IMG/VR virus record: IMGVR_UViG_2529293069_000022
Origin: a virus
Lineage: Duplodnaviria > Heunggongvirae > Uroviricota > Caudoviricetes
DNA: 35,118 bases
Reading direction: 5' to 3' (one strand)
Shown here piece after piece: positions 26,325 through 35,118 of the stretch. Positions within the stretch are counted from its first letter, which is position 1, and each line of letters starts with the position of its first letter. The position numbers are program-made.

Positions 26325-29300
26325 CAAAGGAGAACTAAAATCTAATGAAGTTTCAATATTATATTCATGATTTTTATGGTCTATATCAGATAATGAAATG
26401 GGTTGTTCATTCAATGATGATACAGACAGATCATTTTCAATGTAATAATTACTATCATTATATGAGCTTTCAAATTTACCCAAGAAAGCCACATATACTA
26501 ATTTAAAGTGGTTTGTCTTAAATAGAAACTTATCATTTTCATCCGGCATCCCAAAAAAGAAAACCGTCAAGTATTTTTTAGCATTCCTTTTATCTTTAAG
26601 CCCCTTATAATACCTATCAGCTTCCTTCCTTTGCTTTTCATATTCCTTCCAAAACACATCCTTCTGACTTTTATTCCAGTCAGAAACATCAATTTCAAGC
26701 GTAAATGGTTTTTGGGTTTTCTTATCCCTTGCGAGGAAAGTAATACAATGTTTATCTGAATCTTCATGCAGACGAATATTAGACTGGGCTACACCATAAT
26801 AAATAGCAGGTTTGTAATAACGTATGTTGTTTTTGTAAAAAATAAGTTGAAATGTATCTTTATAAGATCGCGTGCCATATGGAGGGATTGATAGCTGTTC
26901 ATTATGATTGCTATTATTTATGTAATAGTCAACGACTGGCTTAATACTTGATGAAGATACAGGATGTTCATTACCTTTTTTTTCATCCTTGTGATTTTCA
27001 TTTTTAATATTTCTGGCATTTTTAACACCACCTCTTGGTTTCACATCAATTTTTAAAAGTGATATAACCGGAGCAGGTGGCGAATTATGTTTTCTTTCGT
27101 CATTTGAAGTATGATTGTTTTTATATCTTGGATCATGAATACCACATCCATCCTTATGTTTATCGCCATATCTGAAATATGATTGATTAACATGTTTCAT
27201 AGTAAAACTACAAGGTGTGGCTTTAATTTTACAAGGCTCGTATGGGCATTCAAAACTCGTTGTCTTAATGTAAAAATCATCCATTCCACGGAGATCATTT
27301 CCATGAATGATTTCATCAGTCGAACTATCCTTCGCAATCGTCATATCTTAACCCTATGAAAATCTATGTCCTTCTAAGGATTCTAGCTTTTTCTTATTGA
27401 CGATCCAATCAAAAAATTGTACTCCAACTTACCAAAATACACGATCAAGCAGAAGTTATTAACTTAAGGGGTAGAATTAGTATTTTTCAAAGAAATTAAA
27501 TGTTTGACAGAATGATGCTGAATAACATCGCTAACCTTAGTAAGGTCAGGGAGTTGTTATACACAACTCCCCTCTATTATCGTTTGTTAAAGGTTCTGGG
27601 TATGTATGCATGGTAACAGTAAAAGCATCTTAGAGGATGCTTTTAAGCATTAATTAGATTCATGGAATTATAGATTTACGAATCTAATATTAAAATTTAG
27701 ACTATAGATTAAGTAAGTCTAATGAAAATCATACAAACACTACAACCCATATCTTTTCCTTTTATCCTTTTTCGATAATTCTCTTTTTAGAGTTGAAGCC
27801 TCATATTTCCTTTTCTCATTAGCATAGACTTTCTCTGTTCGGCTACCATTACTGACTATAAAGTTAATCAATGAAGAACATACATGCTTCATACGCTCTT
27901 TGTTGATCAAATCATCATCCAGTTTATTTATATGACTATAATATGAAAGTAGCAGAAAGGTTAAAACAACCTCCCTGTTGGAGAAGGTCATTTTTTCTAT
28001 ACCACTCTGGTATTTGATATAAAATCCTGCACAAAAAAGATATGATTGTTCGATAATTCGTTGCTCTGAGAAACCTGATTCAGCGAGTTTATCAACGAAT
28101 CGATCAAGCAGAAGAAGATACCTTTCCATTAAGTTAATATTTGTTTTGTCCATAATATGCATCCTTGCAATAGTGAAATTTTGTCGTCCTGACAAGAAAA
28201 TAAATAACATAATATTTCACCATGTCAATAGCTAAAACCTATCAATTTTATTAAAGGTATTTTGCAGGTAACGGATTATTAAGTTCTTCAATCGTTATTT
28301 GTTTAAGGTGAGCATTATAAAGCCATACTTTGAACTGCTCTAAATAGCGTTCATTTAATGCCTTCAAAGCTTCATTTTCTGCTTCAAGTCTTTTAATTCG
28401 TTGAGAAGCCACTTTTAAATTAGCAGGTTTTACAGTGTGTATTACACCAGATTTGATTGTGGTTTTTTTCACATTGAAGCTTTCCGCAATCCTTACATGA
28501 CTACTTAAGGATTGTCTTGATGGTCTTTTCCCAATAACCCTGACTAACCTATCGCACAAAGCATTCCAGGTTAGTTTTTCATCTATAGACCATGTGTTAA
28601 TAACATCTACAATCTTCTTCTCATGATAACCATTTATATGCTTAGCCATTTATTCTCCTTTTTTTATTTTTTTATGGAATTCATACCATTTATCAGCATT
28701 TATGTTCCCATCATTTTTATCATACAGTGTTCTTTTTAAAATTTTATCGTGGATATTTGAAATCGTTTCGTTATCTAAACCAGAGTTCTTAATTGGATAA
28801 TTATCACACGGCTTAAACGCATATGAGTGCTTGCAGTAGCCATGTTTTGATACAAGTACTGCACCACTACTAAGTGAGTCAAACTCATTAAGATCCACTA
28901 CTGGAATATCCTTTATTCTGTGCTCATTAACACATACTGATAACTTTTTTTCTCTTATTGCTTTAGACATTTGAAGATGCGATCTGTGGTCATAAGAAAC
29001 ATTTTGAGAAATAAGCTTACGTCCAGACCAGCGAGCAATACTAAATTCATCCATACCATTTATTTGAGCAAATGTGTTGAGAAGATGCCTTAGTTGATGT
29101 GTTCTTAGCAAATATGGGCTACCATCTTCATTTATATAACCATGTCTTTTAAAAACATTAAAATACCCTTTTATATAATCAGAATCAATGATATCAGTTT
29201 TAAAAAAATTCGTTGTAGGTCTGAATAATTTATCTGACATTTCCTTTTTATTTTGATTTAACTGTCCTTCAGTTAACAAGCAAAGCGCATTAGAATATTT

Positions 29301-32300: not shown

Positions 32301-35118
32301 CATATTCAATGAACTGTTTCTTGGAATATGTGCTCTGATACTTTCAATAAATACGTCTACTTCATACTTTGCATGAATCCCCTTTGACGAATGAACTAAT
32401 CCACATAACCACTTAAGGTAGCGTGAAAAAACGTGTATTCTATAACTAAAGGTTCTCTTCGCAATAAACCTATAATTTGTCGATTTTATATTTATGATTT
32501 TTTGTCTGTCGAATCTTTGTTTCGCATATCTTACCAGATCATCTATTTCTGCAACGCTGAGATATTTTTTAAGTTCAACTCTCTCAATTATATCAATTCC
32601 CCTACCATCCAAGAAATTACTGAAAATTAGTAAGTTAGTTGCAACTATTTCCATCGTTGAGGCCGTTGCGCCTCTATTTCTTATGTCTGTAGTAAGAAAT
32701 AGATTTTGATAGTAAGTTGGTAGATTACTTTTTTTATCAAGGATCAGGCATCCTCGCTCTCCACTACTCATGATGAATTTCTTTACTTTATATCCCATTT
32801 TCACCTCAAACTTAACAAATTAATATCACTCTCACTTATTAAATATATTCCAATTCAAAATAATTCAAATTTTTTACAATGAATCTTGTTTAATTGGTAT
32901 ATATATTAATGGCTTGAAAAATTTTATTTGACGTCAAATAAACAGGTACGGCTAGTGGGCTGTATCCATACCCGATATTAAGAAAACCATCTCTAAGCCT
33001 TATAGCAAAAGCTCTGCCAGAAAAAACGTAAAGAATTACGTTAAATATAGATTTTTTTAAGATTTAAACTTTACAAATCTGAGAATTAATCCTCATAAAT
33101 AAGAAGACTGTCATTTTATTTCAGGCAACATGCTTTCTTGAATTTTCGATAGTTAATTGAATCCATTCGTCTACTTCACTTTCAATGAAAGCAACAGAGC
33201 GCGCACCGATTTTAACGGGGGAAGGAAAACGATTTTGGTTGATGAGGTGATAGATCCAAGCTTTACCGTATCCAGTTCGATGCAGAACCTCTGGTAAACG
33301 AATAAGGCGGGTGTTGTGCTGATTCATAGTCGTTTCCTCTGTGCCGTTTTGATGGAAATGACTATACAAATGAATCAGCAGGAAAAAGACCGAAGCTGGG
33401 AACGCCAGAGCTAATGGAGGTTGGTCTTAGTCAGAATCAGCGATTTTCATCACGTCTGAAACTCTGATCTTTTTCAAATGGCTGTTCTTGTTGATGAACA
33501 GATTAAACTGGCGAATAAAAGGTATACTCGCCGCCTTCAAAGCAAGAGGTTTGTCTGTATCCCTGATTTGGTGGTTCAGGCGAGTGTTGATCTCATCATC
33601 GTCATCTGTATACAACAGGCGAGAAAGGCGGTCTTCTGATATACGTACTTTATATAATTTTGACCATACCAGAATGTCGATCATGGGAAGGAGTCTGTAA
33701 TTAATGATTTTCTTAATCGTTCCATAACCAAAGCGAATAGCTTCCGTTACATCTGGTTCTATGCCACGCACTTTACGCCATTGAGGAAGTGCAGCCTTTA
33801 GGGATTCAGCGATCTCTTCATCTGTCCCGTTTGCTAGGTCGATTTCGACCATGACAGTATCCCTGAACAATTTTGGCAAAACTTCCGATACAGGGCTATC
33901 GAGGAATTCTCTGTTAACAGAATACTCATCGCTTCCATCCCAAAAAAACAGTGAGTTCCGTAATCCAACTATGCTGAGTTGAGCCAGTCTTTCGGTTGTC
34001 GTCAAAAAGAAGTGCGGGGGCTGGTAAAGAGTATCCTCTCTTGTGAGATAGCCGAGATGCTTTTCTGTGATGAGAAAGGGCTTTCCAGTGAAGATCCTGT
34101 CGATGTAGAGCCTTACGGCTTCTGCTTCAAATTCTTCATGATATGGTTTGAAGAACAATGTCCTTGCCAGCAATTCATGGTAGAGGTGTATAAGCGGAAG
34201 CTCTTCGAATCCGCGATATGTATCTATATCCAGCCACTTCTTCACCTCTCTCGTATGTTCAACTGACCAGTTTTTCATAACGATCTCCAACAGGCATTAG
34301 ACTTAATGTATGTAGCAAACGTAATCGACATGTTAAAGGAAGACCAATGAAATGAGTTCAGATGCCATCAGGAAGTTGAACCAAAAGGTTTGATATTTTT
34401 TGATACAGTTCGCTAACGGACTATTTTCAGGGGTTTATGCCGTTACGATTTATGGTTCCTTTATAGAACCAAAGGTAAAGTCAGAAACAGCAGTTATCTA
34501 GAAAATTCAATCAAATAGATATCTAGTTACAGGGACGCCAGCCCAATCATGATTGGACGGTGTAAGGACAACACCAACAAAAACAGGAAGTTAGAAGTCT
34601 CAGCAGGACACCGACCAGACGGTGAGGAGACATAAAAGGATACGCAAAGGAGCCGCGGCTCCTGGTGACATGAAAGCCCACAGATGTGGGCTTTTTCGTT
34701 GATGGTCAGAACGACCAGTTCACACCAGCTACCGCGTTCCACGGGGATTCCACACCGGCACCATGGCTATACCCCACCCCAAGATGCCCGCTTAACGTAC
34801 TGCTGAATGAGGCTTTAATACCTGCCTGGTATATTCCACGTCTGCCCGACAAATCATTGACGAAATTACCGTCATTATTCACCTTCACCCGGTTATCATC
34901 GACAAATTCTTTGCGCACAGCCGCCTTCAGCCACGGCTCAATTTCCATACCGTTCCCCAGACGCATGTTGTAACTCAGCGTTGCGCCCAGTTCACGATAT
35001 ATACTGCGGGTATCGACTGATTTCGATTCCATGCCATTGGATAAATGATATTCGGGGTTATCAGCGGTGAACCCCGTTAACGATGCATACGGCGTCAGGT
35101 TCCAGTTACCATCGGTAA

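What the first reader, a model, noticed from the sequence alone, without database searches (positions are those of the whole stretch)
28251..32804. Operon of three tandem tyrosine recombinases plus a small protein
Three consecutive, overlapping minus-strand genes (403, 441 and 543 aa) each carry tyrosine-recombinase catalytic motifs, and a 132-aa protein starts immediately after the third. This resembles recombinase-in-trio (RIT) elements and Tn554-family transposition modules (two recombinases plus TnpC), but with an unusual size series and an extra large recombinase. Combined with the upstream alpA it may define an uncharacterised integrative element.
Basis: partly seen in the sequence, partly recalled or inferred. 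Interest (0 to 1): 0.7.

Follow-up and report, generated by a model that had tools for sequence, protein, structure and literature searches.

The report
Known GInt three-recombinase module in O157
[quoted passage not shown] This E. coli O157:H7 copy is already listed in a published GInt survey, so the finding is real but not new.

Summary
Four intact, overlapping or abutting minus-strand genes (403, 441, 543 and 132 aa) lie at 28251-32804. All three large proteins keep tyrosine-recombinase catalytic residues.

The interpretation as an uncharacterised element does not hold. This is the ginABCD operon that defines GInts (Bardaji 2017; also called the Tn6571 family). The exact GinC- and GinD-position proteins of this window are in the GInt synteny list of Idola et al. 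2023. In 78 species-representative loci the A-B-C-D order is kept in 75, and 29 of these sit directly after ssb, the published GInt target. The element is not a RIT, Tn554, SE or GMT element.

The window is E. coli O157:H7. The operon lies inside a ~24.7 kb ssrA-linked island with a P4-type integrase, an AlpA excision regulator, a relaxase pseudogene and Lamassu-like defence cargo. It occupies a fixed slot between the alpA stop codon and a conserved 137-aa gene, an arrangement shared across Enterobacterales.

Two modest new points emerged:
- The GinC family keeps a complete R-K-H-R-W-Y set, although it is described as lacking the motif.
- No att repeats of the module's own could be found, so what the module still moves in O157 is unresolved.

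Interest is low.

The parts
31593..32804 (-). ginA: tyrosine recombinase, 403 aa by ORF. The RefSeq start gives 401 aa (WP_000540864.1).
   Evidence: ORF. PF00589 at 66.9 bits. XerA/XerD-like NCBIfam hits. R218, K257, H332, R335, W366 and Y376 are at least 93% conserved in 80 homologues.
30278..31603 (-). ginB: tyrosine recombinase, 441 aa by ORF. The RefSeq start gives 437 aa (WP_000428080.1).
   Evidence: ORF. PF00589 at 43.8 bits. NCBIfam NF041502 'integrase_1' at 318.6 bits against a cut-off of 350. R200, K227, R339, H362 and Y371 are conserved, as are C429 and C432.
28650..30281 (-). ginC: large protein with the tyrosine-recombinase fold, 543 aa (WP_001059531.1). RefSeq annotates it only as 'DNA-binding protein'.
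   Evidence: No Pfam or PDB sequence hit. The AF2 model matches only tyrosine recombinases. R228, K260, H395, R398, W418 and Y430 are conserved. Listed as GinC in Idola 2023.
28251..28649 (-). ginD: small accessory protein, 132 aa (WP_001052051.1).
   Evidence: ORF. No domain hit. The AF2 model (pLDDT 85) shows four short helices plus a 38-residue helix at residues 78-115, with no PDB fold match. It follows ginC in 75 of 78 loci. Listed as GinD in Idola 2023.
32805..33120 (-). Leader and regulatory region of the gin operon, running up to the alpA stop codon. It contains the 20-bp perfect palindrome TTTATTTGAC|GTCAAATAAA at 32923-32942.
   Evidence: Sequence. The region is conserved in copies of 95-98% identity. 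In the clade at about 66% identity the palindrome sits at the same position as TTTCTTTCAC|GTGAAAGAAA. Homology to loci with divergent modules breaks at 33121, or at 33077 in other loci.
33121..33369 (-). alpA-family gene of the surrounding island, a likely recombination directionality factor or regulator. It is not part of the gin operon.
   Evidence: PF05930 at 67.6 bits. Paired with the DUF6387 gene in islands that lack gin genes.
33427..34290 (-). DUF6387 gene, the last gene of the island on the attR side.
   Evidence: PF19924 at 241 bits. Homology among elements stops at its start codon.
27740..28153 (-). Conserved 137-aa gene of unknown function directly downstream of ginD, with its own conserved leader.
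   Evidence: Annotation. Found 91-122 nt after ginD in nearly all backbone loci, behind a conserved TTGACA...GTCAGGATGAC...GCAAGGATGCAT leader. Its identity varies independently of the gin genes.
9817..9832 (+). Copy of the ssrA 3' end (CCCGCCAGCTCCACCA): the left attachment repeat of the ssrA-linked island.
   Evidence: Exact match. It lies 124 nt before the P4-type integrase gene.
9956..11227 (+). P4-type integrase of the host island.
   Evidence: Arm-DNA-bind_3, Phage_int_M and PF00589 domains.
34532..34543 (+). Right junction of the island: hybrid repeat GACGCCAGCCCA, followed by the native ssrA-ypjA intergenic sequence.
   Evidence: Alignment with the empty site of strain STEC409.
23361..24593 (+). 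MobA/VirD2-type relaxase of the host island, a pseudogene in O157.
   Evidence: RefSeq notes an internal stop. PF03432 hit.

Best explanation
The four genes are a GInt-family ginABCD recombination module.

In the Pseudomonas GInts that were studied experimentally, all four products are needed together. They excise the element as a circle by recombination between short imperfect flanking repeats, and re-insert it site-specifically, typically at the 3' end of a chromosomal gene. By homology the O157 proteins most likely work the same way: a hetero-oligomer of three tyrosine-recombinase-fold proteins, all with intact active-site residues, assisted by the small GinD protein (four short helices plus one long helix), which may assemble the complex or set directionality.

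In O157:H7 the module is not at a chromosomal gene. It sits inside a ~24.7 kb ssrA-linked mobilizable island (window ~9817-34543) that has its own P4-type integrase, an AlpA regulator and a relaxase. The module fills a fixed slot that begins at the alpA stop codon and ends about 35 nt before a conserved 137-aa gene.

Shown here: identity, synteny, fold, conserved catalytic residues, context and slot boundaries.

Inferred: that the module is still active, and which DNA it moves. The candidates are the 4.9 kb module alone, the module plus downstream cargo, or nothing any more.
For: **Literature**
- WP_001059531.1 and WP_001052051.1 from O157 strain EC4115 are in the ginC-ginD synteny list, which was built by PSI-BLAST from the P. 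stutzeri DSM 4166 GinC and GinD (PMC10214605).
- E. coli GInts carrying defence genes have been reported.

**Tests run here**
- 75 of 78 species-representative loci that encode a GinC homologue keep the order A-B-C-D on one strand.
- 29 of them start less than 400 nt after ssb; Pfam SSB was confirmed in 6. Others follow tauE or oprD. This reproduces the published habit of inserting at the 3' end of a gene.
- Identity of the O157 proteins to those stand-alone GInts is 31-37% for A, 25-31% for B, 28-35% for C and 30-45% for D.
- Fold and catalytic residues are supported.
- All four ORFs are intact, at 99.9% identity across O157 genomes. The module is present in 351 of 5426 complete E. coli genomes, always as one chromosomal copy.
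- Slot boundaries come from comparison with loci that carry divergent modules in the same backbone.
Against: - Several structural hallmarks of a complete GInt could not be shown for this copy. No 10-17 nt imperfect direct repeats flank the module or a larger segment above chance.
- The 5' homology breakpoint differs between comparisons, 33121 against 33077. That pattern fits exchange by homologous recombination as well as site-specific insertion.
- No clean empty site was found. The only gin-less backbone retrieved is too diverged to use.
- GinC here keeps the first arginine, which Bardaji et al. describe as missing.
- I could not compare directly with the Pseudomonas reference proteins because their sequences were not retrievable. 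That link therefore rests on the published list and on the ssb-linked homologues.
- Within O157 the module is always at the same place, so there is no sign of recent movement.
Confidence: 0.85

Rival explanations
1. The gin operon is a co-opted, integral module of the AlpA/P4-integrase/relaxase island family, not a separate nested element. It would give the island a second recombination system, for example for alternative integration sites or for swapping cargo. Different gin alleles would then spread among islands by homologous recombination in the conserved flanks.
For: - The same backbone (DUF6387, AlpA, ABCD, the 137-aa gene, then the relaxase) recurs in 32 (+5) loci from many Enterobacterales genera. 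In 16 loci a tRNA gene and a P4-type integrase lie directly upstream.
- Identities of the gin genes and of the backbone genes vary independently. In L005, A is 39% identical but DUF6387 is 94%. In L010, A is 98% identical but DUF6387 is 49%.
- Breakpoints are not at one fixed nucleotide.
- No att repeats were found.
- Variable cargo lies beyond the relaxase, not after ginD, in most loci.
Against: - Islands of the same kind exist without gin genes (L087; ICEKp258.2), so the module is dispensable for the backbone.
- Close relatives of the module are demonstrably self-contained elements elsewhere (PMC5385486).
- A few loci do carry 1.5-3 kb of extra DNA directly after ginD, as GInts do (L030, L031, L043).
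Confidence: 0.35
2. The module is an inactive relic in O157:H7. It was inherited with the island and no longer moves anything.
For: - The module is always single-copy and at the same site in about 300 O157/O55 genomes, at 99% identity or more.
- Neighbouring island genes are decayed: the relaxase has an internal stop, hxsB and the DUF6119 gene are frameshifted, and LmuB is split.
- No att repeats are recognisable.
Against: - All four gin ORFs are intact and every catalytic residue is kept.
- The upstream palindrome and leader are conserved.
- Published GInts also excise at very low frequency, so the absence of polymorphism is weak evidence.
Confidence: 0.25
3. It is a recombinase-in-trio (RIT) element or a Tn554-family transposon.
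For: - Three adjacent tyrosine recombinases resemble a RIT element.
- Two catalytic recombinases plus a small accessory protein resemble Tn554 TnpA/TnpB/TnpC.
- Bardaji et al. report low GinD-TnpC similarity.
Against: - RIT elements have no conserved fourth small gene and are bounded by inverted repeats. Here the small gene is conserved in 75 of 78 loci, and no terminal inverted repeats were found.
- Tn554 has two recombinases, not three, and is known only from Staphylococcus and Enterococcus (Table 1 of PMC10214605).
- tblastn with GinD found no Tn554 TnpC in 72,556 plasmids even at E = 10.
- The proteins are published as GInt proteins.
Confidence: 0.03
4. It is a strand-biased circularizing integrative element (SE: intA-tfp-intB-srap) or a Gamma-Mobile-Trio (GMT) system.
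For: - SEs are also four-gene modules with a large protein of tyrosine-recombinase fold and a small coiled-coil protein.
- NCBIfam gave weak GmtY hits.
Against: - The SE gene order puts the large non-catalytic Tfp second. Here the large protein is third and keeps all catalytic residues.
- GinC/Tfp and GinD/Srap form separate clusters in the published network, and these proteins were retrieved with the GInt queries.
- GmtY scores were 22 and 21 bits against a cut-off of 340.
Confidence: 0.02

Closest known systems
GInts (genomic islands with three integrases; ginABCD; also called the Tn6571 family). Bardaji et al. 2017, Sci Rep 7:46254.
   Same: - A four-gene, one-strand, translationally coupled operon in the same order: recombinase of about 400 aa, recombinase of about 440-540 aa, a large poorly annotated protein with the recombinase fold, then a helical protein of about 130-140 aa.
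- Protein homology to ssb-linked GInts at 25-45% identity.
- The O157 GinC and GinD are already in a published GInt list.
- The position directly after the stop codon of a gene recalls the published insertion at the 3' end of ssb.
   Different: - This copy lies inside another mobile island, after alpA, rather than at a chromosomal housekeeping gene.
- No flanking imperfect repeats, and no AT-rich 3' end of its own, could be defined.
- In most relatives the variable cargo is not directly after ginD.
- GinC is the short 543-aa form and keeps the first catalytic arginine, which is said to be missing in GinC.
[quoted passage not shown] Idola et al. 2023, Mob DNA 14:7.
   Same: A four-protein recombination module with two ordinary tyrosine recombinases, one large protein of recombinase fold and a small coiled-coil accessory protein. 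SEs also form circular intermediates.
   Different: The gene order differs, with the large protein second in SEs. Tfp lacks the catalytic residues, whereas the protein here keeps them. The protein families are separate.
Tn554 (TnpA, TnpB, TnpC) and RIT elements (RitA, RitB, RitC).
   Same: Several tyrosine recombinases encoded in tandem and acting together. Tn554 also needs a small third protein.
   Different: Tn554 has two recombinases and Gram-positive hosts. RITs have three recombinases, no small protein, and inverted-repeat ends. Neither matches the four-gene architecture here.
P4-integrase/AlpA mobilizable islands at tRNA and tmRNA genes, such as the ROD21-like (EARL) islands including ICEKp258.2. 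This comparison concerns the host island only.
   Same: An integrase at one end, AlpA and a DUF6387 gene at the other end reading inward, a relaxase, and short att repeats derived from the tRNA or tmRNA gene.
   Different: The described EARL islands sit at tRNA-Asn, carry TraD and a MOBQ relaxase, and have no gin operon. Membership of the O157 island in that family was not tested.

Membership tests
GInt | An operon of three tyrosine-recombinase-type genes followed by one small gene, on one strand, in the order ginA-ginB-ginC-ginD. | tested here: met
   ORFs with overlapping or abutting junctions. Fold and domains. The order is kept in 75 of 78 related loci.
GInt | Homology of the four products to recognised Gin proteins. 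| tested here: met
   WP_001059531.1 and WP_001052051.1 are in the PSI-BLAST-derived GinC/GinD list of PMC10214605. All four proteins detect their counterparts in 29 ssb-linked operons. The Pseudomonas reference sequences could not be aligned directly.
GInt | The gin operon delimits the 5' end of the element, with attL just upstream of ginA and often overlapping the end of the target gene. | tested here: inconclusive
   Homology to loci with divergent modules breaks exactly at the alpA stop codon, 317 nt before ginA. In other comparisons it breaks at 33077.
GInt | Cargo DNA starting at the ginD stop codon, followed by a short AT-rich 3' end. | tested here: inconclusive
   In O157 a conserved backbone gene follows ginD after 98 nt. 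A few relatives carry 1.5-3 kb of extra DNA there (L030, L031, L043). A low-GC block spans about 26000-33100.
GInt | Flanking imperfect direct repeats of 10-17 nt (attL and attR). | tested here: not met
   No repeat above chance was found. The best candidate scores no better than random matches in 24 other loci. Short imperfect repeats are hard to detect without an empty site.
GInt | Excision as a circular intermediate and site-specific integration, both requiring all four genes. | not testable with these tools
   Known from experiments in Pseudomonas only.
GInt | GinC lacks the first catalytic arginine, or the RHRY motif. This is a published description, not a definition. | tested here: not met
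   R228, K260, H395, R398, W418 and Y430 are conserved in 130-137 of 137 representatives and in 82 locus-derived sequences, including ssb-linked ones.
RIT element | Three recombinase genes only, bounded by terminal inverted repeats. | tested here: not met
   A conserved fourth gene is present. No terminal inverted repeats were found. No RIT-specific profile was available.
Tn554 family | Two recombinases (TnpA, TnpB) plus the small TnpC. | tested here: not met
   Three recombinase-fold genes are present. GinD finds no TnpC by tblastn at E up to 10.
SE (strand-biased circularizing integrative element) | The order intA-tfp-intB-srap, with a non-catalytic Tfp in second place. | tested here: not met
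   The large protein is third and keeps the catalytic residues. The published clustering separates the families.
Gamma-Mobile-Trio (GMT) | A GmtY recombinase that reaches the NCBIfam cut-off. | tested here: not met
   NF040693 scores 22.3 and 20.8 bits against a cut-off of 340.
P4-integrase/AlpA mobilizable island (host island) | An integrase next to a tRNA or tmRNA 3' end repeat, an AlpA-type regulator, a relaxase, and flanking repeats derived from the target gene. | tested here: met
   Integrase domains and relaxase. AlpA. ssrA repeats at 9817-9832 and 34532-34543.

The most novel reading that the evidence does not exclude
Two linked readings are not excluded.

(1) GinC is a third catalytically active recombinase rather than a DNA-binding scaffold. 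Its complete R-K-H-R-W-Y set is under strong purifying selection across the whole family. GInt recombination would then use three active tyrosine recombinases.

(2) In Enterobacterales the gin module has become a standard component of tRNA/tmRNA-linked AlpA/P4-integrase/relaxase islands, inserted precisely after the excision-regulator gene. There it could provide an integrase-independent route of movement or drive the exchange of defence cargo.

Neither point appears in the papers read here.
Probability: 0.3. Interest if true: 0.5.

Novelty: already known. Interest (0 to 1): 0.22.

Why it matters
It matters little as a discovery. The element type has been described and experimentally characterised since 2017, and this copy has been catalogued.

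It is useful for annotation. RefSeq calls ginC a 'DNA-binding protein' and ginD 'hypothetical', which hides a mobile-element core present in about 6% of complete E. coli genomes and in essentially all O157:H7.

The side observations could sharpen models of how multi-recombinase elements work and how defence islands are rebuilt in enterobacteria. They are the full catalytic set in GinC, the fixed slot after alpA in mobilizable islands, and a palindrome that co-varies with the module. All three need experiments.

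Tried and rejected
- **Sequence searches with GinC.** Searches against Pfam, NCBIfam and the PDB, with the single protein and with a 25-sequence profile, gave nothing usable. Only structure prediction plus Foldseek identified the fold.
- **hhalign of the GinC profile against single GinA and GinB sequences.** Not significant. Profile-profile runs were only weakly significant, though they aligned the expected motifs.
- **Terminal repeats.** The repeat finder over 27600-33450 returned only chance-level matches in AT-rich DNA.
  - A scan for copies of the alpA-end sequence gave one 15-nt candidate, at 33103-33117 and 25957-25971, that coincides with a homology breakpoint.
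  - The same scan in 24 other loci gave equal scores at unrelated positions, so I do not trust the candidate.
- **Empty-site search.**
  - Distant blastn with alpA-DUF6387 and with the 137-aa gene found one gin-less backbone (L087), which is too diverged for base-level comparison.
  - The other hits carried other gin alleles (L005, L089).
- **Integrase adjacent to and divergent from DUF6387 (L021, L081).** I considered this as evidence for gin-mediated integration of the whole island. I rejected it because tandem island arrays explain it more simply.
- **GinD.** There is no significant PDB fold match and no TnpC hit.
- **The 543-aa ORF at 11850-13481.** It has the same length as GinC, but it is a frameshifted DUF6119 gene and not a second copy.

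Full report
**1. The observation**

The window holds four consecutive minus-strand ORFs at the stated coordinates:
- 31593-32804: 403 aa
- 30278-31603: 441 aa
- 28650-30281: 543 aa
- 28251-28649: 132 aa

The first pair overlaps by 11 nt and the second pair by 4 nt. The fourth gene starts on the base after the third gene's stop codon, so the layout suggests one translationally coupled operon. The window is E. coli O157:H7: the 4.55 kb are 100% identical to strain 493/89. RefSeq annotates the genes as two 'tyrosine-type recombinase/integrase', one 'DNA-binding protein' and one 'hypothetical protein'.

**2. Are all three large proteins recombinases?**

Pfam PF00589 hits the first two proteins (66.9 and 43.8 bits) but not the third. 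The third protein also has no sequence match in the PDB, alone or as a 25-sequence profile.

Its AlphaFold model (pLDDT 76) nevertheless matches only tyrosine recombinases: Tn1549 Int at E 3e-5, then Cre, XerH, XerA, IntI and lambda Int. These matches cover both the core-binding and the catalytic domain.

In about 80 homologues of each protein, taken from related loci, the expected active-site residues are at least 93% conserved:
- A: R218, K257, H332, R335, W366, Y376
- B: R200, K227, R339, H362, Y371 (the His-II position, R336, is variable)
- C: R228, K260, H395, R398, W418, Y430

For C the same six positions are conserved in 130-137 of 137 distant cluster representatives. Profile-profile alignment puts C R228 on A R218, and C H395/R398/W418/Y430 on B R336/R339/H362/Y371 (E 0.011 and 0.007). 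Those E-values are weak, but the alignments are consistent with the fold result.

**3. What it is**

Three tyrosine recombinases plus a small protein, in this order, is the ginABCD operon that defines GInts, 'genomic islands with three integrases' (Bardaji et al. 2017, PMC5385486). In Pseudomonas those authors showed:
- excision as a circle
- site-specific integration of a synthetic mini-element
- loss of both activities when any one of the four genes is mutated

Idola et al. 2023 (PMC10214605) searched RefSeq for ginC-ginD synteny blocks, starting from the P. stutzeri DSM 4166 proteins. Their Additional file 10 contains WP_001059531.1 and WP_001052051.1 from O157 strain EC4115, and these are the third and fourth proteins of this window. 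They report GInts in 7.5% of Escherichia replicons. I find this module in 351 of 5426 complete E. coli genomes, always as one chromosomal copy, with 300 copies at 99% identity or more. Hochhauser et al. 2023 already describe GInts (the Tn6571 family) as carriers of defence genes in E. coli hotspots.

**4. Independent test of family membership**

A scan of one genome per species returned 78 loci that encode a relative of the third protein.
- In 75 of them all four O157 proteins detect co-oriented counterparts in the order A-B-C-D.
- 29 operons begin less than 400 nt after an ssb gene. Pfam SSB was confirmed in six genera, including Pseudomonas, Proteus, Rhodoferax and Psychrobacter.
- Others follow tauE or oprD.

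Insertion at the 3' end of ssb is the published hallmark of many GInts.

The rival families fail:
- SEs have the order intA-tfp-intB-srap, with a non-catalytic Tfp.
- RITs lack the fourth gene and have inverted-repeat ends; none were found here.
- Tn554 has two recombinases, and GinD finds no TnpC by tblastn.
- GmtY scores are about 21-22 bits against a cut-off of 340.

**5. Where it sits**

- Window 1-8291 is the early region and integrase of a lambdoid prophage, Sp17 in the Sakai nomenclature.
- A perfect copy of the ssrA 3' end lies at 9817-9832, followed by a P4-type integrase gene at 9956-11227.
- At 34532-34543 a hybrid repeat (GACGCCAGCCCA) joins the native ssrA-ypjA spacer, as shown by alignment with an empty site.

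The gin operon is therefore inside a ~24.7 kb ssrA-linked island. That island also carries a decayed His-Xaa-Ser cluster, a Lamassu-like LmuA and split LmuB system, a relaxase pseudogene, a gene for a Pro-Glu repeat protein, and AlpA and a DUF6387 gene at its far end. Islands that lack gin genes end with the same AlpA-DUF6387 pair (L087; ICEKp258.2 in PMC10763509). alpA therefore belongs to the host island and not to the recombinase operon.

**6. A conserved slot**

In 32 (+5) of the surveyed loci, all from Enterobacterales, and in other E. coli strains integrated at tRNA-Leu, at yejO or at ssrA, the operon lies in the same backbone:

[tRNA - P4-type integrase] - DUF6387 - AlpA - ABCD - 137-aa gene - ... 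- relaxase - variable cargo.

Module identity and backbone identity vary independently. In strain N-01, at the same ssrA site, DUF6387 is 94% identical but GinA only 39%. In Xenorhabdus, GinA is 98% identical but DUF6387 only 49%.

Against loci with divergent modules, nucleotide homology stops exactly at the alpA stop codon (33121) and resumes about 35 nt before the 137-aa gene's ATG (about 28190). Against other loci the 5' break is at 33077.

The 316-nt leader holds a 20-bp perfect palindrome at 32923-32942. In the clade whose module is about 66% identical it is replaced, at the same position, by a different but equally perfect palindrome. That suggests a binding site specific to each module.

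**7. What could not be settled**

I found no imperfect direct repeats that would mark the module's own attL and attR, and no clean empty site. Three readings remain:
- a nested, cargo-poor GInt that targets the 3' end of alpA
- an integral island module whose alleles are exchanged by homologous recombination
- a relic

I consider the family assignment secure (about 0.85-0.9). The question of what this copy still moves is open.

**8. GinD**

The model (pLDDT 85) has four short helices and a 38-residue helix at residues 78-115, with no significant PDB match. This agrees with the published coiled-coil or helix-loop-helix predictions. Its role as an assembly or directionality factor is inferred by analogy with TnpC and Srap.

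**9. Verdict**

The finding is real but already explained: a known element type, and a copy that has been catalogued.

Two points go beyond the papers I read:
- The GinC family keeps a complete catalytic set, although it is described as lacking the first arginine or the whole motif.
- In enterobacteria the module occupies a fixed slot after the alpA gene of mobilizable tRNA/tmRNA islands.

Both are modest and need experiments.

Noticed in passing
window 26052-27344 (-): A 430-aa protein with a long (Pro-Glu)n repeat. The window copy is 78 nt longer than the copy in strain 493/89, so the repeat number varies between O157 strains. It has a weak PADLOC hit to PD-Lambda-4_B (E 2e-7). The gene is present in only some relatives of the island, once directly after ginD (L043).
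   Followed up: partly
window 17613-21768 (+): Lamassu-like (ABC-three-component) defence cargo: LmuA at 17613-18809, a middle component at 18799-19485, and LmuB split into two ORFs at 19448-20302 and 20479-21768. The system is probably disrupted.
   Followed up: partly
window 32923-32942: A 20-bp perfect palindrome, TTTATTTGAC|GTCAAATAAA, lies 139 nt upstream of ginA. In the clade whose module is about 66% identical, the same position holds TTTCTTTCAC|GTGAAAGAAA. Both arms changed symmetrically, as expected for the binding site of a dimeric protein that is specific to the module.
   Followed up: partly
window 28154-28230, and the equivalent stretch in L002-L086: The leader of the 137-aa gene (TTGACA ... 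GTCAGGATGAC ... GCAAGGATGCAT ATG) is conserved in every backbone locus, even where the encoded protein is only about 30% identical. GTCA-N3-TGAC is a small palindrome.
   Followed up: no
GinB residues 429-432 and GinC residues 483-492 (window ~30308-30319 and ~28806-28835): Conserved Cys and His residues lie in the C-terminal extensions of GinB (C429, C432) and GinC (C483, H485, C492), outside the recombinase fold. They may form small metal-binding motifs.
   Followed up: no
window 9817-9832 and 34532-34543: A copy of the ssrA 3' end and a hybrid repeat delimit a ~24.7 kb island. The lambdoid prophage Sp17 and a DUF4760 gene lie between this island and the real ssrA gene, which is outside the window.
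   Followed up: yes
window 11850-16900 and 23361-24593: Several island genes are decayed in O157: a frameshifted DUF6119 gene (its 543-aa ORF matches GinC's length only by coincidence), a frameshifted hxsB within the hxsDBCA cluster, and a relaxase with an internal stop.
   Followed up: no
window 2056-2114 (+): The lambda CIII thermoregulator RNA (Rfam RF01804, 88.5 bits) lies in the prophage early region.
   Followed up: no
window 33103-33117 and 25957-25971: A 15-nt repeat with one mismatch (AAAATGaCAGTCTTC in the gin sense) lies just after the alpA stop codon and at the end of the BamE-domain gene, where homology to L072 and L073 breaks. It would delimit a 7.15 kb low-GC unit. Equally good matches occur at unrelated places in other loci, so it is not trusted.
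   Followed up: partly
plasmid collection (H116-H126, H226-H252): Divergent gin-like modules occur on many conjugative E. coli, Salmonella and Pseudomonas plasmids (GinC about 34% and GinD about 39% identical). GInt relatives are therefore not confined to chromosomes.
   Followed up: no
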